Shown here: positions 1,011-39,871 of the stretch, in pieces | How positions within the stretch are numbered: position 1 is the first letter of the stretch | Layout of the letters: each line of letters begins with the position of its first letter | Virus record (IMG/VR): IMGVR_UViG_3300032893_000062 | Span: 1-53,979 of that record | Length of the DNA: 53,979 nucleotides | Direction: 5' to 3' (one strand) | Source: a virus | Taxonomy: Duplodnaviria > Caudoviricetes | Program-made: the position numbers and the translations under genes | The notes under the pieces: model-generated | The model's database searches: none | Told to the model about the DNA's origin: nothing | What the model saw: the letters and a program-made list of their open reading frames with translations, nothing else

Positions 1011-1222
1011 ACGCTCGGGGACCTTGGTTTTCTCGGGCAGGATGGCTCGCTCTTTCCTGTTGGTTTGCTCGGAAAAGTCGGCTCGCTCATCTTAGTTGGA
1101 TTTCTCTCTACCCCCGGCTCGCTCTCTTTACATGGGTTTCTCCACGGCAGTGGCTCGCTCGTGCCATCTGGTTTACTCAAAGGGCTTGGCTCGCTCAACA
1201 CGGCTGGTTTTCTCAACGTCCT
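1011..1222 (-). ncRNA. Orphan TIGR-like guide-RNA array, about 6 units of 36 nt
   Basis: On plus, (T/C)GGCTCGCTC occurs at 1043, 1079, 1115, 1151 and 1187, alternating with TGGNTTNCTC. Unique 8-nt segments separate them. The repeats match the array at 28321-28970. Confidence 0.85.
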
Positions 1223-19854: not shown

Positions 19855-20316
19855 CTACTGCCAGTCGGCGAAGGCGATCTGGACGTCGTACTCCGCCACG
19901 TCGGTCCCTTGGATGTGGAGCGGCTTGCACCGCTTCACCGTCGTTGTGGTGAACGTCCTCCGCTGTATGACGCCGTTCTGGCTCCACGACGCCGTAAGGG
20001 TCCCCCCGATGTTGTCCCCCGACTGCTGCAGCTGCTGGCAGCAAGCGACGATGTCGCCGTTTGCAACAACTCCCGTGGTCCTCACGGCGTTGAACCGCAG
20101 CGTCCCCGCCCTGACCGTGTTGGTGATCATCACCACCACCCCGCCAATCAGAGGAACGACGCGGGCGTTGTCCATCTCCTGGTCGCTGTCGACGATGTCT
20201 CCGTTGACCTTGAACCCGACCAGCGAGATCGAGTTCCCGTCGTTCAGAAGCGGATGGATCCACTGGAGGGAAAAGTCGCCTACTGTCTGAAGCTGCGATA
20301 TGGCTGGATTGGCCAC
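19855..20316 (-). CDS. Tail tube protein
   Basis: 153-aa beta-rich ORF after the sheath; AGTLRFN motif. Confidence 0.7.
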   Translation of the reverse strand: MANPAISQLQTVGDFSLQWIHPLLNDGNSISLVGFKVNGDIVDSDQEMDNARVVPLIGGVVVMITNTVRAGTLRFNAVRTTGVVANGDIVACCQQLQQSGDNIGGTLTASWSQNGVIQRRTFTTTTVKRCKPLHIQGTDVAEYDVQIAFADWQ

Positions 20317-24444: not shown

Positions 24445-25869
24445 TTACGTGGTCGAGGACTTGATCCCGAACCCGCTCCACGCAGCGACCGCCGCCTGGA
24501 CGGGGGCGTAAACGCCTGCGACCCGCCGGAGGAACTTGTACTGTGTGTCGTAGCTCCCAGGGATCGTCGGATAGACGAACTCCATCAGCGGGGCGCCGAA
24601 CATCACCATCGGCTGCACCTGCCCTTCGGGGCCGGTCCTCATCCGCGGGGCGATCAGGAGGAAGTAGTCGTACGTCTGCGCGTTGAACGAGGTCGACGGC
24701 GCAAGGAGCGGGTCGATCACGATCTCGACGTTCGGCACGGACCCGTCCTCTTTCTTCCCTGCGATGAAGTTCTCGATCGTCGCCTTCAGAGCGGCGGTCG
24801 GGTTGTACGTGGTCGAATAGGGTGCGGTGAGACGGTTGTAGCACTGCGGCGACATCGCCAGGATCAGCGTCTCGGCCTTGTTGTAGAGCGAGTCCAGGAA
24901 CGGAACGATGATCCCTTGCAACGCGGTGAGCATCGATGCGCCAGGGTTCGTCGAGTTGTTGAGGAAAATCGCGTTCATGCTCGAACCCGAGTACGATGTC
25001 ACCGACGACGGGACCGAGAGAAGTCCGACCGTTTCGGTCGCCGTGTTCCCGTAGTAGACCAGGTAGCTCGTCAGCATGTGCAGGACGTAGTCCGTGTACT
25101 GCTGCTTGAGCGTGACCATCTGCTGCCCGAACGGCGATCCGCTCTGTTCCGCTCGCTTCAGCTCCTCGATCGAGAGGTCGTAGCTTGCCGCCATGTGGAT
25201 GACGGGCGAGACCATGATCCCCGACTGGACGTTAACGTTCGGCGCCATGTTGTTCGAGAGTCCACCCGAGGACTCCAACGTGGCGAAGCCGACGTAGTCC
25301 GCGAGGTTCATGTTCATCACCTCGCACCAGGGCTCTGTCCCGCTTTCGACCTCGACGAGATCGAGGGCATTCGAGTAGAGCAAGGGGGCCTTGAAGATCT
25401 GCTGGAACCACCCGACGTTCCACGGCGAGAGGGCCTGCATCCCGAGGAGGTTCGGAGCGTTGGCGTTGGCGTCCATGACGCTATCGGTCACCGCCCTCCG
25501 CTTCGCAGCGGTCAGGCGGTACTGGCCCTTCACCCCAAGCTTCTCATCCCAAACGAAGCCGGTGTCTACTTTCCCTGGCTCCGTCTTGAAGAGCTCTTTG
25601 ACCTCTTCGGTGGCGAGGATCTGCCGGGCGTCTGCGATGTACTTCGCCTTCCCTCGGTATGCCGCGTCTCCGACGTACGCGGGGCGCATCTTCGCGCGGG
25701 CGGGAACGTCGCAGTGGACGCGGTCCTCCGCCATCCCGACTTCGATCTCAGTCCTCCCGAGCCCGTGCTTGAGACTTGGATTGAGGTCGACGAACTGGCC
25801 GACCCTTTCCATCGCCGCTCCGAGCCGCTTGTCGTAAAGTCGGACGTTGTTGTCGATGAACTTGTCCAT
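24445..25869 (-). CDS. Major capsid protein (DUF2184/HK97-fold-like)
   Basis: YDLSIEEL..A...VYYGN...VGLL, ETLILAM..., RRVAGV; follows the protease and decoration genes; strong RBS. Confidence 0.8.
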   Translation of the reverse strand: MDKFIDNNVRLYDKRLGAAMERVGQFVDLNPSLKHGLGRTEIEVGMAEDRVHCDVPARAKMRPAYVGDAAYRGKAKYIADARQILATEEVKELFKTEPGKVDTGFVWDEKLGVKGQYRLTAAKRRAVTDSVMDANANAPNLLGMQALSPWNVGWFQQIFKAPLLYSNALDLVEVESGTEPWCEVMNMNLADYVGFATLESSGGLSNNMAPNVNVQSGIMVSPVIHMAASYDLSIEELKRAEQSGSPFGQQMVTLKQQYTDYVLHMLTSYLVYYGNTATETVGLLSVPSSVTSYSGSSMNAIFLNNSTNPGASMLTALQGIIVPFLDSLYNKAETLILAMSPQCYNRLTAPYSTTYNPTAALKATIENFIAGKKEDGSVPNVEIVIDPLLAPSTSFNAQTYDYFLLIAPRMRTGPEGQVQPMVMFGAPLMEFVYPTIPGSYDTQYKFLRRVAGVYAPVQAAVAAWSGFGIKSSTT

Positions 25870-25883
25870 ATCGGTGTCCTCCT

Positions 25884-26447
25884 TTACGCTGCCGCCGGAC
25901 CGAGGATGTCGATGTCTACGATCCCGGTGAACTCCTCAACGTTCACCACGATCGCCTGCAGCTGATGATAGCCTGCGGGAACCGTCGTCCCTGCGGGGAG
26001 GAAGTTTATGATCCCCGTCGTGTCCTGGAAACAGACGCGACACCCGGGGATCGGTGCGATCGCCCCCGAGGCGCTCGACCCGTAGGTCGCATACCTCAGC
26101 CTTCCTTTGACAACGACCGTAGCCGGCTGCTCGTTGAACAGGTAGTTCGGCTTCGCCGGATCGTTCTCCCTGACCCCCTGCTCGTTGAGCAGCGGCCCCA
26201 TGATCATGAACCCGGATCCTGTCGGATACCCGACGTAGAACGCCGAGTCGTCGGCCGCCGTCCCGCTGGCAAGGATCGACATGATGGCGCCGAAGATGGC
26301 GCTTCCGCTGACGCTCTGGCTGGCGCCCGCGGAGATGATCCCTCCCTTCGTCTGGAGGAGTCTTGTCGACCCTTCCATGACGGCGGGAACCCCGTTGATC
26401 GCCTGCGAGCCGAAGAACTCGACTGCCAGCGACATGTTACTTTGCAT
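25884..26447 (-). CDS. Capsid decoration / cement protein
   Basis: AIFG...Y...PATVVVKGRL; between protease and capsid. Confidence 0.65.
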   Translation of the reverse strand: MQSNMSLAVEFFGSQAINGVPAVMEGSTRLLQTKGGIISAGASQSVSGSAIFGAIMSILASGTAADDSAFYVGYPTGSGFMIMGPLLNEQGVRENDPAKPNYLFNEQPATVVVKGRLRYATYGSSASGAIAPIPGCRVCFQDTTGIINFLPAGTTVPAGYHQLQAIVVNVEEFTGIVDIDILGPAAA

Positions 26448-28239
26448 CGCTTTTCCTCCCTCGTACTGAGTTCAGAAGTCCTTCGAGTCCGCCAGGCGCA
26501 CCGTCGGCGACCTGCTTGCTCGATGAGAGAAGCGCCGTCAACGACGACGCTGAATCGACAACCGAGTCCCCCGCTTTCGGGGGTTCTTTCTTTTCCTCCG
26601 CCGGCTTCTCAGGAGCGGGCGCGGCCGCCGGAGCGGGCTGCGCGTCTGCTTTTGCGGGCGCCGGAGGCTGCGCTGGGGCAGGTGCCCCGGGACCGCTCGA
26701 CGCCGGGGCAGGAGCCGCTGCGGGGGCCGCTGTTCCCTGTCCCGATGTCGAGTCCATGAACTGCTTGATGGCCGCCGTTACCGCATCGGCAAGTACCTCG
26801 GCGGGTGTCTTCTGCGGGGCCGCTGCCGCTGGCGCCGCAGGCGCTGCTGGGGCAGGAACGGGTCCGCTCCCCACAGGTTCGGACGGAGGATCCCCAGGAG
26901 CTTCTCCTGCGGGAAGAGTCGTGCTCATCGGAGTCGCTCCAGGGACCGCAGCGGGCGGCTCGTCGGGGTCGGGTTCGTCAGTGACACCCTTGATCGGCGA
27001 TTCAGTCTTCTTGACCTCTTCGGCCTTGACCTCGGGGACCGCGTCGGCTTTCACCGCAGCGGGCTCTGCGGTCGGGATCGTGGGAATCTCCGCAGACCCC
27101 TTCGCAGGAATCAGGATGCCTTTCGGGTCGATCCCCGCATGTTCCTCGGGCGTCTTGTCAGCGACCTTCTTGTGGCCTGTCCCGTCGCACATGTCGCACG
27201 GTTTCCCGTCCTTCATGCCGGTTCCGTGGCAATCCGAACAATCTTCGGAGGCATCCTTCGCCTTCCCCCGCAGACCCAACAGATCGGAAAGCTTCATCCC
27301 GTCCTCCTTCGAGTCTCCAAATGCCATCACCGCTTGACTGATTGACTCCCTGTCAAGCTTGTCGAACAGAGCGCACGCAAGCTGAATCGCCGACCGGACC
27401 ACCTCGTCCGGGTATTCCTTCATCAGTTTCAAGTCGTCGAGGTAACTCATCAGTAGAGACTTTTCGTCACCATAGGGAAGATCGATCACGAGAGAGCGGA
27501 GCTGCTCGACTCGGTTCTCGATCTCCATCTCGGACATCGTCTGCCGCTGAGATGCCAACGTGTCGAGCCCCGACCAGAATCCCATCGCTTGAGATGCAGA
27601 TTCGTCTTTCGCTTGATCCTTGATCAGCGAGCGACGTTTCACCGCCCACCAGAGACCGGAGGCAATCTTCTTCGCGTTCGTCTGCAACTTGGCGACGGCA
27701 TCCGTGATCGCCGACCACTTCCCGCCACGCCCTCGATTGACAAGCGCCAAATGGTTGGTATGCGTGACCTCGGTCATGATCGCATCGTATGTCTGCCCGC
27801 GGTGCTTGCCCTTTTTCCAAATGAAGTTCGCGCTGTAGCCCGGGGACAGCTCGATCACGTCCTTGTCGTAGGCTTCGATCCCGACCGAGTCCGCCAGCAC
27901 GACCTGACCATTGACGCTGACTTCTCCGATTTCTTTCAGGTACTCAATGTCCGCCGTGTCGGATGTCCAGCCGATTGCTTCTGACTTCCAACTTTCCGGA
28001 TCGATCCATCCTTCAGGATGCTCACGGGAAACGGTCATCTTCGTGAACATGCCTTTCTGAACAGCATCGACCAAAACGGGAGCAGGCCGATAGACTACGT
28101 AGGAGTCCTTCGTTCCTATTTCGGGAGGAGGTGGCCAGGAAAGGCCGAGGTTCGGGATTTCATTCGCGCCGTAAACGTAACAACCAGAATGCGCAAATCG
28201 CCCTTGTTTGACCAATTTCTCGATTACTGCTGTAGGCAC
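26437..28239 (-). CDS. DUF2213-like prohead protease/scaffold
   Basis: AHSGCYVY, VYRP, EHP, ELSPGY, NHLALVNRGRGG; Pro/Ala-rich C-terminal linker and a Zn-finger insert. Confidence 0.85.
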   Translation of the reverse strand: MPTAVIEKLVKQGRFAHSGCYVYGANEIPNLGLSWPPPPEIGTKDSYVVYRPAPVLVDAVQKGMFTKMTVSREHPEGWIDPESWKSEAIGWTSDTADIEYLKEIGEVSVNGQVVLADSVGIEAYDKDVIELSPGYSANFIWKKGKHRGQTYDAIMTEVTHTNHLALVNRGRGGKWSAITDAVAKLQTNAKKIASGLWWAVKRRSLIKDQAKDESASQAMGFWSGLDTLASQRQTMSEMEIENRVEQLRSLVIDLPYGDEKSLLMSYLDDLKLMKEYPDEVVRSAIQLACALFDKLDRESISQAVMAFGDSKEDGMKLSDLLGLRGKAKDASEDCSDCHGTGMKDGKPCDMCDGTGHKKVADKTPEEHAGIDPKGILIPAKGSAEIPTIPTAEPAAVKADAVPEVKAEEVKKTESPIKGVTDEPDPDEPPAAVPGATPMSTTLPAGEAPGDPPSEPVGSGPVPAPAAPAAPAAAAPQKTPAEVLADAVTAAIKQFMDSTSGQGTAAPAAAPAPASSGPGAPAPAQPPAPAKADAQPAPAAAPAPEKPAEEKKEPPKAGDSVVDSASSLTALLSSSKQVADGAPGGLEGLLNSVRGRKSDAK

Positions 28240-28301
28240 ACATCATTTTTACTACTTCCAGATATGATTCGACGGCTTATTTCGTAAAACATCGTAAAAC
28301 G

Positions 28302-28325
28302 AAAAGCCCTCTTTTCAGAGGGCTT
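28302..28325 (-). terminator. Intrinsic terminator ending the array transcript
   Basis: AAGCCCTCT-tttc-AGAGGGCTT stem, followed on minus by a U-rich tract. Confidence 0.8.
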
Positions 28326-28970
28326 CGCTTACACGTCCTGGTTTTTCTCTTTTATCCTGGCTCGCTCCCCGCGAATGGATTTCTCCTTCACTTTGGCTCA
28401 CTCCGCGTCTCTGGATGACTTGACGCCTTTGGCTCGCTCCTCACTAATGGGTGTCTCCGTACCGATGGCCCGCTCTAGCAGATTGGGTTTCTCCCTTTGT
28501 TTGGCTCGCTCTCGTTCCATGGTTTCCTCGGGCGGAGTGGCTCGCTCTTCTGCTGGGATTCTTTACATCCTGGCCGCTTTTCCCCCTTGGGTTTCTCGCG
28601 ATGATCGGCTCGCTCCTTCAAACTGGGTTTCTCCCGCAGGTCTGGCTCGCTCAGGCCGCATGGTTTCCTCGTTTCGGATGGCTCGCTCGCCTTCAATGGT
28701 TTTCTCCCCTGGCAAGGCTCGCTCTTCTACTGGGATTCTTTACCTCCTGGCCGCTTTTACGCGAGTGGGTTTCTCTTGTGATATGGCTCGCTTTTCTCCT
28801 ATGGGTTTCTTGAGGGGGATGGCTCGCTCACCCTCGGTGGATTTCTCCATGCGCTTGGCTCGCTTTCGTTCCCTAATTTCATCTTCCCATATGGCTCGCT
28901 TGGCCTCAATGGTTTCCTCTGCCACAATGGCTCGCTCTCAAGCATTGGATTTATCAACAAGAATGGCATT
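28321..28970 (-). ncRNA. TIGR-like tandem interspaced guide-RNA array, about 18 units
   Basis: On plus, TGGCTCGCTC-type repeats start at 28358, 28394, 28430, 28466, 28502, 28538, 28571, 28606, 28643, 28679, 28715, 28748, 28784, 28820, 28856, 28892 and 28928. Each alternates with a TGGGTTTCTC-type repeat, with unique 8-9 nt segments between. Starts right after the Nop-domain gene stop. Confidence 0.9.
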
Positions 28971-28974
28971 CATT

Positions 28975-29754
28975 TCATGCGCTGTGTTTGTGTCCGAGCT
29001 TCGCTTCCTGATAGCTCGGCGTCACCGGCAACCCCTCGATCTCACGCCATGCCATCCAGAACTCCAAGAGAAACATCTTCATCATGTACCGGATGGCAGC
29101 GAAGTGCCGGTGTTTGTCGCTCTCGGTCTTCCAGCCCTCCTCATTGTCGAGGCGCCCCGTCAATCCCTGCTTCTGTTTTTCCTTCCCCATGTGCAACGGG
29201 TAATAGAACCGTAGAGCGTACGATGACTGACTCTTGATGAAAGAAGATCCGAGAACTCCAAGAAGCTTCGTCTTCAGCCAAGCGTTGTACGGGCATCGGA
29301 ATCCAGGAGTCTTCTTGTCCCCTCTGATCTTCGTCTCGCTGATCTTCCACTTTGGTCGTCCCTCGGCGTCCTTTCCATCAGACACCCAGCCGAAAACTTC
29401 TCCAGGATTCAGACCGCAATACTGCCACCACTTCGACACGTTCGGCTTTTCGATGTCGAGACTTGAAATCAGAACAGCACCCATGAGTTCGCCGACTCCC
29501 TTGACGTTCTGAAGCCAATCGATCCAGATGGGGTACTTCTTCAGCTCGGTCTTGATCATCTTCAAGGTTTCGTCGAGCTCTTTGTCGAGATTCCCCTGCA
29601 TGGTCCCGAGGTATGTTATCCCCTCCTCATCGGTCTCCATGCGGATTCTCGCTTCAGGGTCTTTGGGTGCAGCGGCAGCAAGCCTTTGATCGAATGAGAT
29701 TCGTGCCCGCTGAACATCGTAGTAGCACTGGACAAGCATCTTCAGCTTACTCAC
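28975..29754 (-). CDS. TasA-like protein: IS110 C-terminal/Nop RNA-binding domain, no nuclease domain
   Basis: Coiled coil, then WLQNVKGVGELMGAVLI, SKWWQYCGL, PYNAWLKTKL and HRHFAAIRYMMKMFL..FW..WR..EGLP. No N-terminal DEDD/RuvC or HNH. Array lies immediately downstream. Confidence 0.85.
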   Translation of the reverse strand: MSKLKMLVQCYYDVQRARISFDQRLAAAAPKDPEARIRMETDEEGITYLGTMQGNLDKELDETLKMIKTELKKYPIWIDWLQNVKGVGELMGAVLISSLDIEKPNVSKWWQYCGLNPGEVFGWVSDGKDAEGRPKWKISETKIRGDKKTPGFRCPYNAWLKTKLLGVLGSSFIKSQSSYALRFYYPLHMGKEKQKQGLTGRLDNEEGWKTESDKHRHFAAIRYMMKMFLLEFWMAWREIEGLPVTPSYQEAKLGHKHSA

Positions 29755-30415
29755 GGATCACCTCCTGGAGAACGTCGATCACTTCCGAGATGAGCGCCTC
29801 CATCTTCTCATCCACGGTGATGCTGTCGGACTCGAACGCAGCGATGATCTGCCTAAGATGAAACTCTATCGGCATACCGCTCATCGGTCCTTTTACGAAC
29901 TCAGCCTGCTCCTTGGTGATCGTTTCCTGGCTTGCCAGTTTCGGGTTGTTCGCCTTGACCGCCACAATCTCCGATGTTCCCTTGACTCTCTTCAGGCGAG
30001 AGCTGAGATCATCGTATCTGTTGCGGGAAATGCAGAGAACCTCGCAGATGTGATCGGCTGCGAATCTCTGATCAAGCATCATGTTGATGCTTCTCGCCAT
30101 GTCCCATGCAGTGAGTCGAAGCCCTTGGCGAGCATTCACTCGGATGGCGTCTTCGACCATTTCTTTACGGCTGGCATACGATTTCAGCTCAGCCTGAATC
30201 TTTCCGTCTTCTCCGTAAACAGCCTTGTTCGCCAAAAGACGGTGCATCCCATCGACCAAGACTTTGGTCTTGGCATTGATCAAGATCGGCGGAATCCCTT
30301 CGCCACCAGCGAGAAGAGCTTCCTTGATTGAAGAAACGTTCCCTGAAGAAATCTTGTGCCGAGGATACAAGGTCTCATCGACAAGTATCTCGGCCGTTTT
30401 GATAGATTCGGCCAC
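29747..30415 (-). CDS. ParB/Srx N-terminal domain protein
   Basis: LYPR...IPPILI...LVDGMHRLLA...AIRVNARQG, then HTH-like ADHICEVLCISR; 8-nt overlap with the Tas-like gene. Confidence 0.85.
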   Translation of the reverse strand: MAESIKTAEILVDETLYPRHKISSGNVSSIKEALLAGGEGIPPILINAKTKVLVDGMHRLLANKAVYGEDGKIQAELKSYASRKEMVEDAIRVNARQGLRLTAWDMARSINMMLDQRFAADHICEVLCISRNRYDDLSSRLKRVKGTSEIVAVKANNPKLASQETITKEQAEFVKGPMSGMPIEFHLRQIIAAFESDSITVDEKMEALISEVIDVLQEVIRE

Positions 30416-30471
30416 GGCTGGGCCTCCAAAACAGAAAGGTTGGATCGAACGGGCAACGCCACGTTAAAAAG

Positions 30472-30500
30472 ACAGTATCACGTTTCCGAAAGTCTGTCTA
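30472..30500 (-). promoter_or_regulatory. Promoter of the parB-tas-array cassette
   Basis: TAGACA-17 nt-TACTGT with extended TG. Confidence 0.65.
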
Positions 30501-30634
30501 CGTTTTTTTCAGGGCATCGACGATCATTTCCGACACGGACCGGCCGCTCTTTTCGGCCTTCTTTTCAATTGCTTTCTTCTCCTTCTCGGAGACGCGGACG
30601 GCGATGATGACGTTTTTCTTCTCCTTCGTGTGCC

Positions 30635-31264
30635 TCATCGCGCAATCTCCCGAATGAGCCGTTCCCAGTTTTTCAGCCAGTCCGCGGGCTGTTTCCCCCA
30701 GGTCCAGCCTTCAGTCTCCAGCACGTGCCGTGCTTCGTCCTCCCACGGGTTGCCCCATGTGTCATGCGCGTCGTCGTAGCTTAGGCCGACGACCCGCATC
30801 CCCTTGAAACCCTCCGCACACTCGTGGACGCAGGTCGAGAGAAAATCCACGGGGTCCAGAAGGTTGTGCAGGCATACTTCATCGCTCAGGCACCACGCCG
30901 TCGCGTGGTATCGGGGCTCACGGGCGGCGTATCCGTTCATGCCCATTACGAACTCCATGCACCCCTGCCCGCCGTCGGTTACGCGCTTCCGCACGTTGCG
31001 ACCGTTCACCGTGAAGACCTGGACGATCTCCCCGAGGAAGTTCACCGTCCCCACGTAGCGCTTGTCCAGGGATTGAGAGGTGTTGCTCTCGGCGGAGCGG
31101 ATTGCGTTGATCTGCTCTTCAGTGAGCGAATCGCCGATGTATCCCTTCAAGGCTACCTCCAACGGTTCCCCGCGCATGAGCCTTCGAGATACATCCTCGA
31201 CGAATCGCTCGGACAGTTCCATCAGTCTGCATACATCCCCGACGAATCGCTCGGACAGTTCCAT
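30635..31264 (-). CDS. Putative metal-binding protein with HExxE motif
   Basis: CVHECAEG...YDDAH; duplicated N-terminus. Confidence 0.55.
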   Translation of the reverse strand: MELSERFVGDVCRLMELSERFVEDVSRRLMRGEPLEVALKGYIGDSLTEEQINAIRSAESNTSQSLDKRYVGTVNFLGEIVQVFTVNGRNVRKRVTDGGQGCMEFVMGMNGYAAREPRYHATAWCLSDEVCLHNLLDPVDFLSTCVHECAEGFKGMRVVGLSYDDAHDTWGNPWEDEARHVLETEGWTWGKQPADWLKNWERLIREIAR

Positions 31265-31693: not shown

Positions 31694-31909
31694 TCACATC
31701 CCTTTCGGACAGTTCTGCAAGAGGTACGTGATCGCCCCCGCCATCGAAAGGGGGTAATCGCGGACCTTCGGCAAGTCCCTCCTGGCCCAGTTGATCGCAT
31801 GAAACAGCGATTCGGGGATCTCCACCGTCATGGTTCGGTGAAGGTGCGCTTCCCTCTGACCGTGGTACTGTTTCCTCGGCCGAGCGGGGCCGAAGTTCCA
31901 AGCAACCAT
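31694..31909 (-). CDS. Small protein, possibly ribbon-helix-helix
   Basis: RTMTVEIPESLFHAI...SMAGAITYLL; AAGGAGGG RBS. Confidence 0.45.
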   Translation of the reverse strand: MVAWNFGPARPRKQYHGQREAHLHRTMTVEIPESLFHAINWARRDLPKVRDYPLSMAGAITYLLQNCPKGM

Positions 31910-32682
31910 CACGCCACCCTCCTTCTCTCTTGCGCTGCAGTCAAGCTCCACAGCGGAGCGTATCCACAGCGGCAATTGTACGAGTTGTACTCGGGGTCCG
32001 CCAGAAGCTCCTGCATCGTGTAGATTCGGTGGTTCCGCTCCCTATGCGTCTCCCGGACTCGTCCGTCATTCGAAGTCAGCCATTCGAAGTATTGGACGTC
32101 CGCCTGTTGATACCCTGCGAGCGTTACCGAGCGGTTGAACTTCGCGAATTGGTCCCGGGCGAAGAACTTCGCCCTCCGAGCGCTCGTCTCCTCCATGCGG
32201 TCGACGATCTCCGCGACGTCCAGCTCCCCGCCGGTCTGCGCCCAATCCGTGAGTTTCCCCAAAAACGCCTTCTTCAGGTCGTCCTCTTCTCCCTGCCATC
32301 GCTCCACGGCGTCGTCAAGGTAAAGCTCTCGGAGGTAGCGCATCTTCTGGGAGAAAACCTCCTGGGCCGGCAGCGCCATCAACCTCTCCGCCACCGGCCC
32401 TCCGCGACCGATCAAGTCCTCGATGTTCCGTTTCGCCTCCGCCACTAGTTGCGCGTTCAGGCGGGTCCGCAGCCGTTCTACGTCCACGCCTCGCTCGCCG
32501 ACGAGGTCCTGGAGCTTGTGCAGAACGGACAGCGGCCCTCCCGCTGCGGCCACCCGCAGATTTCCGAACAACTTGTCGTATTCGGCCTTCAGGGTTCGGG
32601 CCATCAGGTCCTCTCGCTTCAGCGAGGGTTGGGGAATCTTCTTCTTTCGAAAAAGCTCGCGGCCTTTCAACAAAATATCCAC
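31909..32682 (-). CDS. Phage head morphogenesis protein (SPP1 gp7 / Mu F-like)
   Basis: RAKFFARDQ...YFEWLTSNDGRVRETH...YNCRC. Confidence 0.9.
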   Translation of the reverse strand: MDILLKGRELFRKKKIPQPSLKREDLMARTLKAEYDKLFGNLRVAAAGGPLSVLHKLQDLVGERGVDVERLRTRLNAQLVAEAKRNIEDLIGRGGPVAERLMALPAQEVFSQKMRYLRELYLDDAVERWQGEEDDLKKAFLGKLTDWAQTGGELDVAEIVDRMEETSARRAKFFARDQFAKFNRSVTLAGYQQADVQYFEWLTSNDGRVRETHRERNHRIYTMQELLADPEYNSYNCRCGYAPLWSLTAAQERRRVA

Positions 32683-35657: not shown

Positions 35658-37823
35658 CTATTTCCTCATCGGCTCGTCGATGATCTCGACGCTCTCAAGG
35701 TCGAGTCTCCCGCTGGCGTCCCGTTTCGCCTTGATCTTCCTCCGCATCGGTCGGTCAGGGATGTTGACGATGGCCGCAGGGACCTTTATCTCAGGCGGAC
35801 GGTAATCCACCGTAACTTGTGGCGGGCTAACCGTGACATTCGGTGGAGGAACCGTGACAGAGGGAGATTTGACAATGATCGGACGATCCGCCAAACGGTT
35901 GAAAGCCTCCGCAAGATCCTTCATAGAATCTATTACTGCGCCCCGCAATTCCTTCTGATCAGCCATGATCTTACGGTCGAAACGGTCCGGAAGCTGAGCG
36001 ATATCCTTCACGCCTCCATCCTCTACCGTCATCAACTCCCCGAGAGCTTCCGGGAGCTCGGCTTCCAGAGCCTTCTCGATCTTGACTTTCGGATCGAACT
36101 CCCCGGCAAGCTTCTCCGCAAGCCCTCCCACCTGCAGAGCATCGGCGTATGCCGGTTGCTGGTCGTTCTCGTCGATCTGCCTGATCCTCGCCATGATGCT
36201 CTCGGGAATCTCCACGTCGGGGAAGAACTGCTTCGAAAGTTCGAGAACCGCATCAACGGGAAGCTCTGCGGAGGTCATGGTGGAGACGAACGTCGCGAAC
36301 TTGTCGGCGCTCTCCGCCTTCTCCTTCGCTGTCTGGATCGACGGCGGGTTGAAGGTAAGAGCCAAGCTATTCAATTTCCTCATCCCGTCGGGGTTGTCGA
36401 AGTACTCGGGTCCGAAACAGGAAAGGGCGAGGATCTTCACCACTTGGCGAAACTGCGGCGCCACAGTGATCGAAATCTTCTTCACGCTCTCCGCCTGCTT
36501 CAGGAGGACGTCCTCACCGCGGGAGTCCGCAAGCCCCGTCGGAGCTGAGGGGAAAAGGACTGTCTGCGGAAGCTCGCTCCTCGCCGCTATGTCGACCTGA
36601 AGGAGCTGAACGAGCTCCGCGAACCCTTCGTAGTGCCGCTCCACGGCCTTTACTTCTCCGACCGAAGGGACGGTCGCGGGATGAAGGATGCTCCACGTGT
36701 CCATGACGGAGGTGTTCTGCTGCATCATATCCAGAACATCGTCTATCCCCGCCATAGCGAGCTGGGCATCGATCGGGATCTCGTGAAAGAGGATCGACAT
36801 CTGCTGCGCCATAACTGGGATCGACATAATGACGATCTGGTACGCCAGGATCGAGGTGATGTACCCCTCGAAGTCCGATATCCCCCAGCCGATCTGCGGG
36901 AGCATCCCCCAGTAGGGGAGGAGCTTCGGTCGAACCACGGCGCTTCGTCTCGTCGAGACTTCCACGCCTCCTATCGGGATGTAGTAGTGCGAAGGGGTCA
37001 GATAATCCCGCGCGGTCACGTTCCAGTTCGGAACGATCACGCAGTTCCAGCGGTCCGTCGTGACGAAGTGCTCGATGGAGTCTTTTGTAACCCGGCGGTC
37101 TTTCAAAAGTTCGTCAAGAGTCCACGTCAGAGACTCGACCGTATCCTGCTTCAACCGCGGGTAGCAGATCGCACCGCCATAGATCAATCCGTCGCGGAGG
37201 GAGTCGGCAAGTGCGGGTCCGAACAGGATCCCCTCGGCGTATTCCCCCAGAGTCTTGAACTCGTCGGGCTTCCATCCGCTGCCTTCGAACCCGTAGCCGT
37301 TCAGGAGGCAACCCTTCGCCTTCTTGTCCGTGACGACTGCGGGGATTCCGCCGCTGGAATAGACCGCCGTCGCCTGCTGAGGGCTCATCGACACCGGGGT
37401 GTAGGCGAAATTGTACATCCCGGGGTCGTCGGCGCTCCCCACGCCGCTCGCAGGATTCCAGAACCCGTCTCGAACGTACGATGCCCCCTTCATCCGGAGC
37501 ATCCGTTTCCCATCTTTCGTGTAGCGCTCGAACGTCGGGGAGCTTCGCATAGCGGAGAAAGCGGCCATCCTCATCCGGTCGGTCGCCTCTTCTATCGTCT
37601 GGAAGGATCCGCCATCCTTCACGCGCTGCGCTTGGACGTGATCGTGCATTACTTTCTTGATCGCCTCAATATCGTCTATCGGGTGTCTGATTTTGCTGTC
37701 CCTGTCCTGAGAGTCTCCGATGTACTTCTCAGAGGGGATAGAGCGGCATATTATTTCATACGCTTTCTTCACCCACGGTATCGTCGCGTCCTTCGCCAGC
37801 TTCCGAAAGTCCGTTTCCGCCAT
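35658..37823 (-). CDS. Portal protein (DUF1073-like)
   Basis: YSSGGIPAVVTD...LIYGGA...WGIS...IAARSELPQTVLF..APTGL...LTFNP; follows terminase. Confidence 0.85.
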   Translation of the reverse strand: MAETDFRKLAKDATIPWVKKAYEIICRSIPSEKYIGDSQDRDSKIRHPIDDIEAIKKVMHDHVQAQRVKDGGSFQTIEEATDRMRMAAFSAMRSSPTFERYTKDGKRMLRMKGASYVRDGFWNPASGVGSADDPGMYNFAYTPVSMSPQQATAVYSSGGIPAVVTDKKAKGCLLNGYGFEGSGWKPDEFKTLGEYAEGILFGPALADSLRDGLIYGGAICYPRLKQDTVESLTWTLDELLKDRRVTKDSIEHFVTTDRWNCVIVPNWNVTARDYLTPSHYYIPIGGVEVSTRRSAVVRPKLLPYWGMLPQIGWGISDFEGYITSILAYQIVIMSIPVMAQQMSILFHEIPIDAQLAMAGIDDVLDMMQQNTSVMDTWSILHPATVPSVGEVKAVERHYEGFAELVQLLQVDIAARSELPQTVLFPSAPTGLADSRGEDVLLKQAESVKKISITVAPQFRQVVKILALSCFGPEYFDNPDGMRKLNSLALTFNPPSIQTAKEKAESADKFATFVSTMTSAELPVDAVLELSKQFFPDVEIPESIMARIRQIDENDQQPAYADALQVGGLAEKLAGEFDPKVKIEKALEAELPEALGELMTVEDGGVKDIAQLPDRFDRKIMADQKELRGAVIDSMKDLAEAFNRLADRPIIVKSPSVTVPPPNVTVSPPQVTVDYRPPEIKVPAAIVNIPDRPMRRKIKAKRDASGRLDLESVEIIDEPMRK

Positions 37824-38355
37824 TTCCGTCTCCCTTCGCATCTCCGAAGGTCGCTATTCCAGCTGGCGCTCCGCCACCCTTCGCCATCTTGCCGAGCATC
37901 TCCTGCAGCTTCGCCAATTCCTCACCGGTCGGCTGGGGGACGCTCGCCGCCATCGCCGACTGCAGATGCGCGAGCTGCGCCTTGTACTCGTCCGTGAGTC
38001 CGTGCCGAACGATCACGTCCTCAGCGGCACGGACCATCATAAAGACGTTTATAATCAGCGTGACCGTTGCATCTGCCCGCTTTTGGATCTCCTCGTCGGT
38101 CTCCCTCATCCCCTTCTTGAAACGGTACCCGCCGATAATCATCATGCAGCGCATCCCGAACTTCACGCCTCGGATCTCCGTGTTCACCTTCGCCGCATCT
38201 ATGGCCCTTGGAGCCTTCGCTTTCCACTCCCTCAGAACACGCTTCCACAGCGGCCCCAGGTTAGGGACCACGGGAACGGTGGGAAGTTCTTGCGGGGTCA
38301 CGCCCTGCATCTCTGCCGATGCGGCAGCCGCCGCAGCCGCTTGCCCGTCGCTCAT
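37756..38355 (-). CDS. Hypothetical protein
   Basis: AAGGAGAG RBS; between terminase and portal. Confidence 0.55.
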   Translation of the reverse strand: MSDGQAAAAAAASAEMQGVTPQELPTVPVVPNLGPLWKRVLREWKAKAPRAIDAAKVNTEIRGVKFGMRCMMIIGGYRFKKGMRETDEEIQKRADATVTLIINVFMMVRAAEDVIVRHGLTDEYKAQLAHLQSAMAASVPQPTGEELAKLQEMLGKMAKGGGAPAGIATFGDAKGDGNGGNGLSEAGEGRDDTVGEESV

Positions 38356-38572: not shown

Positions 38573-39871
38573 CTACGCTACCACTCTGTCGGTGATCTGT
38601 CTACGTTCCGCACGGGACGCCTCCCAGAGGTCCTTGAACTCGGCATCCTCCTGGACGATGCGCCAGACCACGTATTCGAGCGAGTCGCACCAGTGATCAG
38701 GCGCCGTCGGCCCTTTCCCCTTCTCCGGGTTCCCCTTGTCGTCGTACTGCCTGACTTTCAATGCCATCGCCAGCGGTCCGCAATTCGGGAAAAGAACCAA
38801 TCGCCCCATCTCGAAGAGCTTGTTGATGAAAAACACGCGGTCGACTATCGACGGATTGATCGCCCCCACACGGCAGAGGATGTTGTACTGCTTGATCTCT
38901 TTCGCGTATCCGAGGACGATCTCGTACCCGCTGGCGTCGGGGTACCATTTGATGATGTTCGGAGGGTAGTCGGTCCGTATCATCTTCGGGGCGTGCCCTA
39001 TCTCTTTGAAGTCCCAGAGCGTCGTCACATAGATCACCCCGCCACGGACCACGGTCCCGCAACCCCTCGAATACCCCGTGTTGAAGTCCTGCCCCACCCG
39101 CACCAAGTCGTTCGATTCCACGGCGAACGGGACCGTCTTCGCCCTGTTTTTGCTCTCATCGTACCCGTAGTAGACTCGACCCGTCGTCAGGTTGACGAAC
39201 ATCCCTTTCAGGAACGCCAGGCGCTCGTTCTCGTTGTACATCCGAACCCAAGAGGCGTACTTCTCTTTCGAGAGGATCCCCGCCTTCACGGCGGCCTCGG
39301 TCTCGCCTCGGATCAGCACGTACGGCTCGTGGGTGTCGTGAAGGTCACTCACGATCTGGTAGAGTCCCTTGTACCCCTGCGCCGTGCTCGAATAGACCTC
39401 GAACGGTTGCCGGCCGTCGGGGAAAACAAGCCTGGTTCGCTCGGAGATCGCCTTCTTCGCCTCCGTCGCCTTTTCGTGCGGGAGCTCGTCGATCTCGTCG
39501 TCTATGAACGCATGATAGTTGTACCCGTAAATGTCCTGCGGGTTCTCGGTCCCGATGCACATAAACTGCATCTTGTTGACCTGAATCAAGCTCGACTGCT
39601 TGTCGAAGTCGTACGGGATCCCGTAACGGCGAAACAGGCGAAAGAGGTCCAGAAGCAAAGTCTTCTTCAGGAATATTACGCTGGTCCCCCCAATCCCTAT
39701 CGTCACCTCGTACTTGTTGTACCGCCGGATGAGATTAAGGATCAAAGCATCGTCTCCGTAGGTTTTCCCAGAAGCATACCCGGCGACGCAGAAAAAGTGG
39801 TTGATGTGCTTGGTCTGTTTGTTCCACGGGGCGTTGAAAAGCTGCGCTTGGTGCTTGATCAAGCTGATCAT
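38573..39871 (-). CDS. terL: Terminase large subunit
   Basis: Walker A GYASGKT, Walker B IDDEIDE, STAQG, nuclease GQDFN and DHWCDSLEY. Confidence 0.92.
   Translation of the reverse strand: MISLIKHQAQLFNAPWNKQTKHINHFFCVAGYASGKTYGDDALILNLIRRYNKYEVTIGIGGTSVIFLKKTLLLDLFRLFRRYGIPYDFDKQSSLIQVNKMQFMCIGTENPQDIYGYNYHAFIDDEIDELPHEKATEAKKAISERTRLVFPDGRQPFEVYSSTAQGYKGLYQIVSDLHDTHEPYVLIRGETEAAVKAGILSKEKYASWVRMYNENERLAFLKGMFVNLTTGRVYYGYDESKNRAKTVPFAVESNDLVRVGQDFNTGYSRGCGTVVRGGVIYVTTLWDFKEIGHAPKMIRTDYPPNIIKWYPDASGYEIVLGYAKEIKQYNILCRVGAINPSIVDRVFFINKLFEMGRLVLFPNCGPLAMALKVRQYDDKGNPEKGKGPTAPDHWCDSLEYVVWRIVQEDAEFKDLWEASRAERRQITDRVVA

What the first reader, a model, noticed from the sequence alone, without database searches (positions are those of the whole stretch)
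28302..30500. Phage-encoded RNA-guided system: ParB-like gene, nuclease-less Nop/IS110-domain gene and a 36-nt dual-spacer array
Seen: a self-contained minus-strand unit of promoter (30472-30500), ParB-like ORF, a 259-aa ORF overlapping it by 8 nt, about 18 repeat units, and a terminator. It is inserted between head genes. Each unit reads on the RNA strand as AGCCA-N8-GAGAAACCCA-N8-GAGCG, so two different conserved repeats alternate with two short unique segments. It is not CRISPR: the spacers are too short and there are no cas genes. Established: 36-nt dual-repeat, dual-spacer arrays beside Nop/IS110-related proteins define TIGR-Tas, and the form without RuvC or HNH is TasA. Inference: the array is processed into about 18 guides that direct a non-cutting DNA-binding complex, plausibly against competing phages or host loci.
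Basis: partly seen in the sequence, partly recalled or inferred. Interest (0 to 1): 0.95.

Follow-up and report, generated by a model that had tools for sequence, protein, structure and literature searches.

The report
Phage TIGR-TasA guide-RNA cassette with ParB
A wetland phage carries a complete copy of the recently described TIGR-Tas system, in which a small protein uses an array of short two-part guide RNAs to find DNA, so the finding is real but is a new example of a known kind.

Summary
On the minus strand, a ParB-like gene (29747-30415) overlaps a 259-aa gene (28975-29754) by 8 nt. An 18-unit, 36-nt dual-repeat array (28332-28973) and a terminator follow. The 259-aa protein is a Tas protein. 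It passes NCBIfam's TIGR-Tas model (124 bits, cut-off 100). It matches solved TasR and TasH by sequence (E 1e-12, 1e-11) and by fold. It has no nuclease domain, and it keeps the Tyr/His pair that TasH uses to cut guide precursors. The upstream protein has a ParB fold.

This tasParB-tasA-array layout was described by Faure et al. 2025 (PMC12045711). This scan has met it before on other DNA.

New here:
- A sibling phage contig has 58 nt where this phage has the 2,258-nt cassette.
- A second, orphan 5-unit array lies at 1012-1214.
- ParB-linked TasA proteins form one side of the family tree.
- The ParB-like protein lacks the glutamate that is mutated to alanine in solved ParB structure 7o0n.

I found no targets for the guides, and expression could not be tested. 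The promoter claim is not supported.

Verdict: new member of a known kind, modest interest.

The parts
30416..30497 (-). Leader between the stop of the backbone ribbon-helix-helix gene and the tasParB start. It has a GGAGG ribosome site before the GTG start. No promoter is confirmed.
   Evidence: Sequence read. 0 sigma-70-like sites in 28200-30800. The stretch aligns with the sibling phage's pre-protease intergenic DNA, including a relic CGTGGCG start context.
29747..30415 (-). tasParB: 222-aa ParB/Srx-fold protein, translationally coupled to tasA.
   Evidence: Family profile against PDB: ParB 7o0n E 2.7e-05, Noc, Spo0J. AF2 pLDDT 96.4. Foldseek ParB, Noc, KorB E about 1e-05. PHROG ParB-like 9.2e-05. 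1310 relatives at E<=1e-3. A homologue lies beside tasA on the same strand in 34 of 88 related loci.
28975..29754 (-). tasA: 259-aa coiled-coil plus Nop-domain guide-RNA-binding protein without a nuclease domain. Tyr248 and His255 align with the guide-processing residues of TasH.
   Evidence: NCBIfam NF052498.1 124.3 bits against cut-off 100. PDB phmmer TasR 9mty 1.8e-12 and TasH 21kl 1.8e-11. AF2 pLDDT 91.2. Foldseek top hits TasH and TasR E 5.5e-09 to 3.8e-07, then IS621. BLASTP to SpTasH aligns Y248 with Y289 and H255 with H296.
28332..28973 (-). Main TIGR array: 18 units of edge repeat GAGCGAGCCA, 8-nt spacer A, loop repeat GAGAAACCCA, 8-nt spacer B. Unit 0 has a degenerate edge and starts 2 nt after the tasA stop. 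Units 6 and 11 are short (33 and 32 nt) and nearly identical to each other.
   Evidence: unit table and per-position counts; motif excess over shuffles; Tandem Repeats Finder.
28293..28331 (-). Truncated last edge repeat (TAAGCGAAGCC) running into an intrinsic terminator hairpin and T-run.
   Evidence: Terminator-like site 28326-28303, 10 pairs, loop 4, T-rich tail; sequence read.
1012..1214 (-). Second, orphan TIGR array with the same two repeats: a leading loop repeat plus spacer, five full 36-nt units (1196-1017), then a truncated edge GAGCG. A hairpin follows at 981-1003. There is no second tas gene, so it must be served in trans.
   Evidence: units; one TasA and one TasParB HMM hit in the whole window.

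Best explanation
The stretch is a complete, horizontally acquired TIGR-Tas cassette of the TasParB-associated, dual-repeat TasA type. It sits between the ribbon-helix-helix gene and the head-protease gene of a roughly 54-kb wetland phage.

Shown here:
- the gene order tasParB, tasA, array, terminator;
- the 8-nt gene overlap;
- the array anatomy;
- family membership of both proteins;
- absence of a nuclease domain;
- conservation of the Tyr/His pair;
- a second orphan array;
- absence of the cassette from a sibling phage.

Inferred from published work on other Tas proteins:
1. The operon and array are made as one transcript.
2. A TasA dimer grips the CCA-ended repeats and cuts inside each edge repeat with Tyr248 and His255, giving about 18 plus 5 guides of 36 nt.
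3. Each guide pairs its two 8-nt spacers with opposite strands of adjacent 8-bp half-sites.
4. Having no nuclease, the complex binds and blocks (represses transcription or replication) rather than cuts.

Since no guide matches the phage itself, the targets are most likely host DNA or rival mobile elements. TasParB is a clade-specific accessory whose role is unknown.

My odds: about 0.95 that it is a TIGR-TasA/TasParB system, and about 0.6 that its working mode is non-cutting binding or repression.
For: Identity of TasA:
- NCBIfam TIGR_Tas model above its curated cut-off.
- Sequence hits to solved TasR and TasH.
- Confident AF2 model whose best PDB folds are TasH, TasR and then IS621.
- Alignments to SpTasH start at its residue 122, and to TasR at 156. 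So the HNH and RuvC parts are absent.

Processing residues: SpTasH Y289 and H296, named catalytic for guide maturation in PMC13421893 (passage), align with Y248 and H255.

Array: the 10+8+10+8 units, with both repeats starting GAG and ending CCA, a degenerate first edge, and a truncated last edge plus terminator, match the published description.

Related loci:
- 58 of 80 related viral loci carry GCGAGCC-type arrays: 86 of the 88 arrays lie on the tasA strand, and every one of the 58 loci has at least one there.
- The published SpTasH array shares the AGCGAGCC core.
- A TasParB homologue lies beside tasA on the same strand in 34 of 88 loci, and directly upstream in 27.
- On the TasA tree all 35 ParB-linked rows, the window included, lie in one half: 4 label changes against 27.8 in shuffles, with 0 of 500 shuffles as low.

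Insertion:
- Sibling contig L091 (portal 62%, Mu F-like 63%, major head protein 71% identity) keeps the same gene order. It has 58 nt between the ribbon-helix-helix gene and the protease gene, where the window has 2,258 nt.
- Cassette GC is 0.53 against 0.581 for the genome; 3 of 259 windows of 2.2 kb are as low.
- Flanking genes are shared with 0 of 88 other tas loci.

Function by analogy: TasA proteins bind 36-nt guides, and MbTasA represses targets without cutting.
Against: - No expression or processing data exist. The only run that holds this DNA is the likely source DNA metagenome.
- No promoter was found.
- No target was found for any guide, in the phage or in the related DNA examined; the counts are under Tried and rejected.
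- The 5' repeat motif is GAG, not the UG 'box D' of TasR arrays.
- His255 is not invariant: 3 of the 13 rows of alignment A3 (the window protein plus 12 relatives), all three of them relatives, have Ile or Lys there, while His257 is invariant.
- Repression has been shown for a stem-loop-type TasA, not for a ParB-linked dual-repeat one.
- Several units are degenerate (units 0, 2, 6, 11, 15, 17), so fewer than 23 guides may work.
Confidence: 0.7

Rival explanations
1. The same TIGR-TasA system, but destructive rather than merely binding. TasParB would be the missing effector recruited by guide-bound TasA. It would cut or otherwise damage the target, as some ParB/Srx-fold proteins have nuclease or NTPase activity.
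For: - Tight translational coupling.
- Clade-wide co-occurrence with tasA.
- TasParB carries DGxHR where ParB carries GERRxRA, and lacks the glutamate mutated to alanine in 7o0n. So it is not a standard ParB clamp.
- The reference list of Faure 2025 cites work on multiple enzymatic activities of the ParB/Srx superfamily (seen).
Against: - No nuclease motif was tested or found.
- Best fold matches are DNA-binding ParB, Noc and KorB, not nucleases.
- 13 of the 48 TasA rows in the ParB-linked half of the tree have no TasParB within about 4 kb. So TasA can stand without it.
Confidence: 0.15
2. The system tethers or positions DNA rather than silencing it. Guides would anchor TasA to host or phage sites, while TasParB bridges or segregates the phage genome (RNA-guided partition), or the bent DNA would help integration.
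For: - The ParB family's classical role is partition.
- Faure 2025 raises integrase help and ParB-related 'additional functional diversity' (discussion passage).
- Many guides (18 plus 5) would suit multi-site anchoring.
Against: - I did not look for a ParA partner, an integrase or a parS-like site in the window.
- The cassette moves between unrelated phage backbones, which suits an accessory weapon more than a core maintenance function.
- No guide matches the phage itself.
Confidence: 0.07
3. The guides regulate the phage's own genes, as a timing switch.
For: TasA proteins can act as transcriptional repressors. The cassette sits in the late head-gene block.
Against: - At 0 or 1 mismatch, no 16-nt guide matches the 53,979-bp genome in either strand geometry with gaps of 0-2 nt. 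The two 2-mismatch hits are no more than my rough estimate of chance.
- The sibling phage manages without the cassette.
Confidence: 0.04
4. A decaying or inert cassette: the genes are intact but the guides no longer work, or the array is only a repeat relic.
For: - Degenerate units (0, 2, 6, 11, 15, 17).
- The window TasA has a long branch, 1.21 changes per column.
- No targets were found.
Against: - Both ORFs are full length.
- Both models are confident: mean pLDDT 91.2 for TasA and 96.4 for TasParB.
- The family-invariant residues listed for the two alignments are given in the window's own numbering, so the window keeps them.
- Twelve main-array units keep both repeats within one mismatch of consensus.
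- A second array is maintained 27 kb away.
Confidence: 0.03
5. Not TIGR at all: a CRISPR-like mini-array or a protein-coding 12-residue repeat.
For: The period of 36 is a multiple of 3, and a 279-aa plus-strand ORF (28375-29214) runs through the array.
Against: - Two different alternating 10-nt repeats with 8-nt spacers are not CRISPR.
- PADLOC gives no hit for either protein.
- The plus-strand ORF runs antisense into the real tasA gene.
- Units of 33, 37 and 32 nt occur.
- The same repeats sit beside TasA genes in 58 of 80 loci.
Confidence: 0.01

Closest known systems
tasParB-tasA dual-repeat TIGR operons (Faure et al. [quoted passage not shown] S14)
   Same: A ParB-like gene in an operon with a nuclease-less tasA. 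Dual-repeat arrays with 10-nt edge and loop repeats lie next to the genes. Flanks vary between loci. The window's TasA falls in the ParB-linked half of the tree.
   Different: Nothing in kind. This copy is divergent (best relative 44% identity, long branch). It has a second orphan array 27 kb away and a defined insertion site against a sibling phage. I could not see fig. S14 or the supplementary tables, so I cannot say whether this contig is in their set.
SpTasH TIGR system of Salicola phage CGphi29 (PDB 9w03, 9w04, 21kl; PMC13421893)
   Same: 36-nt units with 8-nt spacers. The edge repeat shares the AGCGAGCC core. Tyr/His processing pair is conserved. It also sits among phage head genes, between the major head protein and a head-tail adaptor.
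   Different: SpTasH has an N-terminal HNH nuclease and cuts DNA; the window protein aligns only from SpTasH residue 122 on (27% identity). I did not look for a ParB-like partner gene at the SpTasH locus; none of its annotated products is named ParB.
Characterised TasA proteins: FpTasA (dual repeat), PlTasA and MbTasA (stem-loop)
   Same: A Nop domain alone. They bind processed guides (FpTasA). They show RNA-guided DNA binding and reversible repression without cutting (MbTasA; PlTasA).
   Different: PlTasA and MbTasA use stem-loop guides and belong to clades that lack the Tyr/His loop. The passages I read mention no ParB partner for any of the three.
IS110/IS621 bridge-RNA recombinases and archaeal Nop5 box C/D proteins
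   Same: Shared coiled-coil plus Nop RNA-binding fold: Foldseek IS621 8wt9 E 6.7e-04, weak Pfam Transposase_20 and NCBIfam IS110 hits.
   Different: There is no DEDD/RuvC recombinase domain and no fibrillarin partner. Guides are arrayed rather than a single bridge RNA. Scores fall far below the IS110 family cut-offs (18.7 against 140 bits).
ParB/Noc/KorB CTP-dependent DNA clamps
   Same: N-terminal ParB/Srx domain followed by a helical DNA-binding-like region. Arg19, Gly56, Arg59, Ala62 and Asn94 align with conserved ParB motif positions.
   Different: The motif reads DGMHRLLA where ParB reads GERRWRA. The position of the glutamate mutated to alanine in the M. xanthus structure 7o0n is Met57 (Phe in the family consensus). 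The next arginine is His58. The window protein itself hits no Pfam family, and ParB_N matches only 10 of 66 family members. CTPase activity is therefore unproven.

Membership tests
TIGR-Tas (dual-repeat type) | Tas protein with a coiled-coil and a Nop RNA-binding domain | tested here: met
   NCBIfam NF052498.1 124.3 bits against cut-off 100. phmmer to TasR 9mty 1.8e-12 and TasH 21kl 1.8e-11. AF2 pLDDT 91.2. Foldseek top hits TasH and TasR.
TIGR-Tas (dual-repeat type) | Array of two different alternating 8-12-nt repeats (edge, loop) separated by two short spacers, unit about 36 nt, on the tas strand | tested here: met
   18 units of 10+8+10+8 nt start 2 nt after the tasA stop. The motif is in excess over shuffles.
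TIGR-Tas (dual-repeat type) | Both repeats end in the CCA 'box C', and their 5' motif co-varies between edge and loop (UG 'box D' in TasR arrays) | tested here: met
   CCA ends: edge positions 8-10 in 20, 20 and 16 of 20 units; loop positions 26-28 in 18, 19 and 19 of 20. Both repeats start GAG (16-20 of 20). The 5' motif is GAG rather than UG. The paper says such motifs may diverge but co-vary.
TIGR-Tas (dual-repeat type) | [quoted passage not shown] | tested here: met
   Unit 0 edge is ATGAATGCCA (only GCCA kept). The last edge, TAAGCGAAGCC, runs into the hairpin at 28326-28303. Published description seen.
TIGR-Tas (dual-repeat type) | Tyr/His guide-processing dyad on the C-terminal loop of the Nop domain | tested here: met
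   Y248 and H255 align with SpTasH Y289 and H296. The residues are named in PMC13421893 and said to be conserved in dual-repeat systems. H255 is replaced in 3 of the 13 rows of alignment A3, all three of them relatives.
TIGR-Tas (dual-repeat type) | Array transcribed and processed into 36-nt tigRNAs bound by Tas | not testable with these tools
   Only one DNA run, the likely source, holds the locus; no RNA holder is listed.
TIGR-Tas (dual-repeat type) | Guide-dependent binding of DNA, with spacer A and spacer B pairing to opposite strands | not testable with these tools
   No natural target was found. This needs a bench test.
TasA subtype | No HNH or RuvC nuclease domain fused to the Nop protein | tested here: met
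   The protein is 259 aa. The alignment to SpTasH begins at its residue 122 and to TasR at 156. No nuclease family appears in Pfam, PADLOC or NCBIfam.
TasParB (tasA-linked ParB-like protein) | ParB/Srx-type N-terminal domain | tested here: met
   Profile against PDB: ParB 7o0n 2.7e-05, Noc 0.0022, Spo0J 0.0034. Foldseek ParB, Noc, KorB about 1e-05. PHROG 1033 at 9.2e-05.
TasParB (tasA-linked ParB-like protein) | Operonic with tasA | tested here: met
   8-nt overlap with tasA. A homologue is on the same strand beside tasA in 34 of 88 loci, directly upstream in 27.
ParB CTPase clamps | GERRxRA nucleotide motif with the glutamate mutated to alanine in solved ParB structure 7o0n | tested here: not met
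   The aligned motif is DGMHRLLA. The E93 position of M. xanthus ParB (7o0n is the E93A mutant) is Met57, and R94 is His58. Nucleotide binding itself was not tested.
CRISPR-Cas | Single repeat of 25-36 nt with spacers of similar size, plus cas genes | tested here: not met
   There are two alternating 10-nt repeats with 8-nt spacers. PADLOC gives no hit for the two adjacent proteins. The other ORFs of the window were not scanned for cas genes.
IS110 family transposase | DEDD/RuvC-like recombinase domain plus the Transposase_20 domain above family cut-offs | tested here: not met
   Pfam Transposase_20 scores 12.3 bits against cut-off 21.3. NCBIfam IS110 scores 18.7 against 140. There is no N-terminal catalytic domain.

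The most novel reading that the evidence does not exclude
Guide-bound TasA acts as a programmable loading site for TasParB. In place of a fixed parS sequence, each of the roughly 23 guides would mark a DNA address. There the ParB-like protein would be loaded to spread, bridge or condense DNA, giving long-range RNA-guided silencing of host or rival-element DNA, or tethering to it. This would be the first RNA-programmed ParB-type system. It would also explain why one whole TasA clade keeps this partner.
Probability: 0.15. Interest if true: 0.8.

Novelty: new member of a known kind. Interest (0 to 1): 0.3.

Why it matters
TIGR-Tas is a young field, and two of its open questions are what the natural targets are and what the ParB-like partner does. 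In my two literature searches, 'TasParB' appears only in the 2025 discovery paper. So the partner appears to be functionally untested.

This locus gives a compact, complete example in a full-length phage contig:
- a 2.26-kb cassette with known boundaries;
- a sibling phage without it;
- a second array served in trans;
- a ParB-like protein that lacks the glutamate mutated to alanine in solved ParB structure 7o0n.

That makes it a convenient construct for testing the partner's role. It does not change what is known about the family.

Tried and rejected
Target searches, all blank or at chance:
- 18 main-array units against the window, both geometries (spacer A followed by the reverse complement of spacer B, and the reverse order), gaps 0-2 nt: no hit at 0 or 1 mismatch for 16-nt guides.
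- 475 guides of related loci against the window, and 13 window guides against 80 loci: 0 exact hits; 8 and 1 one-mismatch hits.
- All 581 guides against all loci: 2 exact hits, against a mean of 2.45 when B spacers are re-dealt among guides.
- 22 full-length window guides (24 units parsed; the two short units were skipped) against 117 kb of seven related phage contigs: 0 exact, 1 with one mismatch, 9 with two.

I did not scan the large collections with composite 16-mers. The pattern would have to be a joined, partly reverse-complemented string. A 16-mer would also give many chance hits in collections of that size.

Binding and expression:
- Complex prediction on TasA plus TasParB gave no verdict (score 0.00 against a mark of 0.32). 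This counts neither way.
- The look-up of sequencing runs listed one DNA run, a wetland metagenome that is probably the source. No RNA holder is listed, so expression is untested.

Searches that found nothing:
- Rfam: no family in the window.
- Megablast of 24 kb of the window against isolate phages: no match.
- tblastn found Tas relatives in only three isolate phages: phiRSL1, Mvi-JY20 and CGphi29. I found no array within 2.5 kb of the phiRSL1 gene.

Host:
- 5 of 8 genome-contig relatives of TasA are spirochaete MAGs or Sphaerochaeta, at 35-41% identity. That is too distant to name a host.

Ideas rejected:
- The ribbon-helix-helix gene upstream is part of the cassette. Rejected because the sibling phage has it without the cassette.
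- The 177-nt Tandem Repeats Finder period marks a 5-unit duplication. Rejected because only units 6 and 11 share spacers.

The text passages I read did not settle which of the two strand geometries holds, so I tested both. Supplementary files of the papers were closed, so I could not check whether this contig is in the published tas locus tables or in fig. S14.


Full report
WHAT IS THERE

The window is a single 53,979-bp virus record. It is a tailed phage with nearly all genes on the minus strand:
- large terminase at 38573-39871;
- portal at 35658-37841;
- Mu F-like head morphogenesis protein at 31909-32682;
- DUF2213 head protease at 26437-28239;
- major head protein at 24445-25869.

Between the Mu F-like gene and the protease gene, reading the minus strand, lie:
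- two unknown genes;
- a 45-aa ribbon-helix-helix gene (30498-30635; NikA-like 2.9e-10);
- a 222-aa ORF (29747-30415);
- a 259-aa ORF (28975-29754) that overlaps it by 8 nt and has a GGAGGT ribosome site 5 nt before its GTG start;
- a repeat array;
- a hairpin with a T-run at 28326-28303.

THE ARRAY

It has 18 units from 28973 to 28332. Of these, 15 are exactly 36 nt and three are 33, 37 and 32 nt. A unit is GAGCGAGCCA, 8 variable nt, GAGAAACCCA, 8 variable nt.

I pooled the 15 full units with five from a second array. In that set, 18 of the 20 repeat positions carry one base in 16-20 of 20 units; loop positions 22 and 25 carry one base in 13 and 9. The 16 spacer positions carry their commonest base in only 5-11 of 20.

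GCGAGCCA occurs 14 times against 2.43 expected, and 0 of 100 shuffles reach 14.

The first unit starts 2 nt after the tasA stop and keeps only GCCA of its edge repeat. The last edge repeat is cut short (TAAGCGAAGCC) and runs into the terminator stem.

This matches the published account point for point: two alternating 8-12-nt repeats, a 5'-truncated first edge repeat, and a 3'-truncated last edge repeat plus terminator (PMC12045711, passages seen). Both repeats start GAG and end CCA. The paper calls CCA 'box C' and says the 5' motif (UG in TasR arrays) may diverge but co-varies between the two repeats (passage).

A second array with the same repeats lies at 1012-1214: a leading loop repeat and spacer, five full units, a truncated edge, then a hairpin. 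The window holds only one tasA and one tasParB, so that array must be served in trans.

THE 259-AA PROTEIN

Sequence and family:
- Pfam gives only a sub-threshold Transposase_20 hit. PHROGs calls it 'transposase' (1.9e-36).
- NCBIfam's curated model NF052498.1, 'TIGR-Tas system RNA-guided endonuclease', scores 124.3 bits against a cut-off of 100.
- phmmer against PDB sequences finds TasR 9mty (1.8e-12) and TasH 21kl (1.8e-11).

Fold: an AlphaFold2 model from 48 sequences has mean pLDDT 91.2. Its best PDB folds are TasH and TasR complexes (E 5.5e-09 to 3.8e-07, TM 0.63-0.71), then IS621 recombinase (6.7e-04).

Domains: the alignments start at residue 122 of SpTasH and 156 of TasR, so the HNH and RuvC domains are absent. 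It is a TasA.

Processing residues: PMC13421893 (passage) names Y289 and H296 of SpTasH as the catalytic residues for guide maturation. [quoted passage not shown] BLASTP aligns them with Y248 and H255 here. In alignment A3 (the window protein plus 12 relatives), H255 is replaced in three relatives while H257 is invariant, so which histidine acts is open.

THE 222-AA PROTEIN

The window protein itself hits no Pfam family; 10 of 66 family members hit ParB_N. A full-library search finds 1310 relatives at E<=1e-3.

A profile of 66 of them matches solved ParB (7o0n, 2.7e-05), Noc and Spo0J. The AlphaFold2 model (pLDDT 96.4) matches ParB, Noc, KorB and pNOB8 ParB at E about 1e-05. So it has a ParB/Srx fold.

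In the profile alignment the ParB motif GERRWRA (GARRWRA in the E93A mutant 7o0n) lines up with DGMHRLLA. The E93 position is Met57 and the next arginine is His58, while Gly56, Arg59, Ala62 and Asn94 are kept. I therefore do not accept 'CTPase' as shown.

RELATIVES

Arrays:
- Of 80 viral loci that encode TasA relatives, 68 have 36-nt-period arrays by a k-mer chain detector.
- 58 of the 80 have GCGAGCC-type arrays. 86 of their 88 arrays lie on the tasA strand, and every one of the 58 loci has at least one there.
- The published SpTasH array shares the AGCGAGCC core.

TasParB association:
- A TasParB homologue lies on the same strand beside tasA in 34 of 88 loci: 27 directly upstream, 6 downstream, and 1 further upstream (L010, where one search finds arrays in the gap).
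- On a FastTree of 89 TasA rows, all 35 ParB-linked rows, the window included, lie in one half (48 rows) and the other 41 rows have none. That is 4 label changes against 27.8 in shuffles, with 0 of 500 shuffles as low. Near-copies inflate such clustering, and the tree is a quick one.
- The window's TasA pairs with L001 on a long branch.

THE CASSETTE IS AN INSERTION

Nine neighbouring window proteins have no hit at E<=1e-3 in any of the 88 tas loci.

A sibling contig, L091, shares the backbone in the same order:
- terminase 51% identity;
- portal 62%;
- Mu F-like 63%;
- protease 52%;
- major head protein 71%.

L091 has the 45-aa ribbon-helix-helix gene followed after 58 nt by the protease gene. 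The window has 2,258 nt there. Both junctions in the window resemble the sibling's 58-nt spacer.

The cassette's GC is 0.53 against 0.581 overall; 3 of 259 windows of 2.2 kb are as low.

The promoter scan finds nothing in 28200-30800. The cassette may simply be read through from the upstream late genes.

HOW IT MOST LIKELY WORKS

By analogy with published systems, one transcript carries both genes and the array. A TasA dimer binds the repeats and cuts in the edge repeats to give 36-nt guides (FpTasA binds such RNAs; self-processing by TasH). Each guide pairs its two 8-nt spacers with opposite strands of adjacent half-sites (section 6 of PMC12045711). Without a nuclease, the complex blocks rather than cuts (MbTasA represses reporters and binds targets, section 12 of the preprint).

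None of this was tested on this locus. The only run holding it is a DNA metagenome.

TARGETS

I found none.
- Against the phage itself there is no hit at 0 or 1 mismatch for 16-nt guides. This argues against self-regulation.
- Searches against related tas loci and against seven related phage contigs stay at chance.
I tried that route here on the sibling contigs I could fetch, and it came up blank.

COMPARISON AND VERDICT

Faure et al. 2025 describe tasParB-tasA operons with dual-repeat arrays of 10-nt repeats and varied flanks (Methods passage). The follow-up preprint counts 6,685 arrays at 20,096 tas loci (section 5). NCBI has a curated model that names the protein.

This scan has already met TIGR-TasA systems, some with TasParB, on other DNA. 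In my two searches 'TasParB' occurs in only one paper, so the partner's role is open.

This is a new, rather divergent member of a known kind. Its use is as a clean test construct, not as a new system.

Noticed in passing
window 1012-1214 (-), hairpin 981-1003: Orphan second TIGR array with the same edge and loop repeats, five full units plus a leading half unit, 27 kb from tasA. It overlaps the end of a small Cys-rich ORF. There is only one tasA in the genome.
   Followed up: yes
window 28725-28757 and 28548-28579 (-): Units 6 and 11 of the main array are short (33 and 32 nt) and almost identical to each other, including their spacers (GGAGGTA or GGATGTA, and GTAGAA or GCAGAA). The first spacer looks like a ribosome-binding site. 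A 23-nt stretch spanning this unit's edge repeat, spacer A and loop repeat has no match at up to 4 mismatches in the 80 related loci. Their meaning is unknown.
   Followed up: partly
L091 7903-8098, against window 28240-30635: The sibling phage contig has the ribbon-helix-helix gene and then the protease gene after 58 nt. Both window junctions carry look-alike copies of part of that spacer (GAAACGTGATA on the left, GGAAGTAGTA on the right, against GGAACGTAGTA in the sibling). This could be a short duplication made at insertion. The sibling is too diverged to be sure.
   Followed up: partly
window 30280-30462 (-): A 60-aa ORF out of frame with tasParB starts at a GTGGCG that aligns with the sibling's protease start codon context. 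It is probably a relic of the old protease 5' end, not a gene.
   Followed up: no
window 28375-29214 (+): A 279-aa open frame runs through the array on the opposite strand and into antisense tasA. It is an artefact of the 36-nt period (12 codons), not a gene.
   Followed up: partly
L081 (Salicola phage CGphi29) 1138-2490: The published TasH system also sits inside the head-gene block, between the major head protein and a head-tail adaptor. Its array shares the AGCGAGCC edge core with this window. Head-gene blocks may be a favoured landing place for these cassettes.
   Followed up: partly
L082 (Ralstonia phage phiRSL1) 2135-3172: ORF034, annotated 'transposase', is a Tas relative (36.5% identity over 83% of the query). 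My detector found no 36-nt array within 2.5 kb. A 1.4-kb unannotated gap follows the gene.
   Followed up: partly
L083-L088 (genome contigs): Five of the eight genome-contig relatives of this TasA lie in spirochaete MAGs or Sphaerochaeta, at 35-41% identity. Four of those five carry GCGAGCC-type arrays. This is a weak hint at where this clade circulates, not a host call.
   Followed up: partly
window 26437-28239 (-): The DUF2213 head protease has a weak DnaJ-type CxxCxGxG zinc-finger match (E 0.0069, below cut-off) and a long Ala/Pro-rich C-terminal half. The sibling's protease has the same make-up.
   Followed up: no
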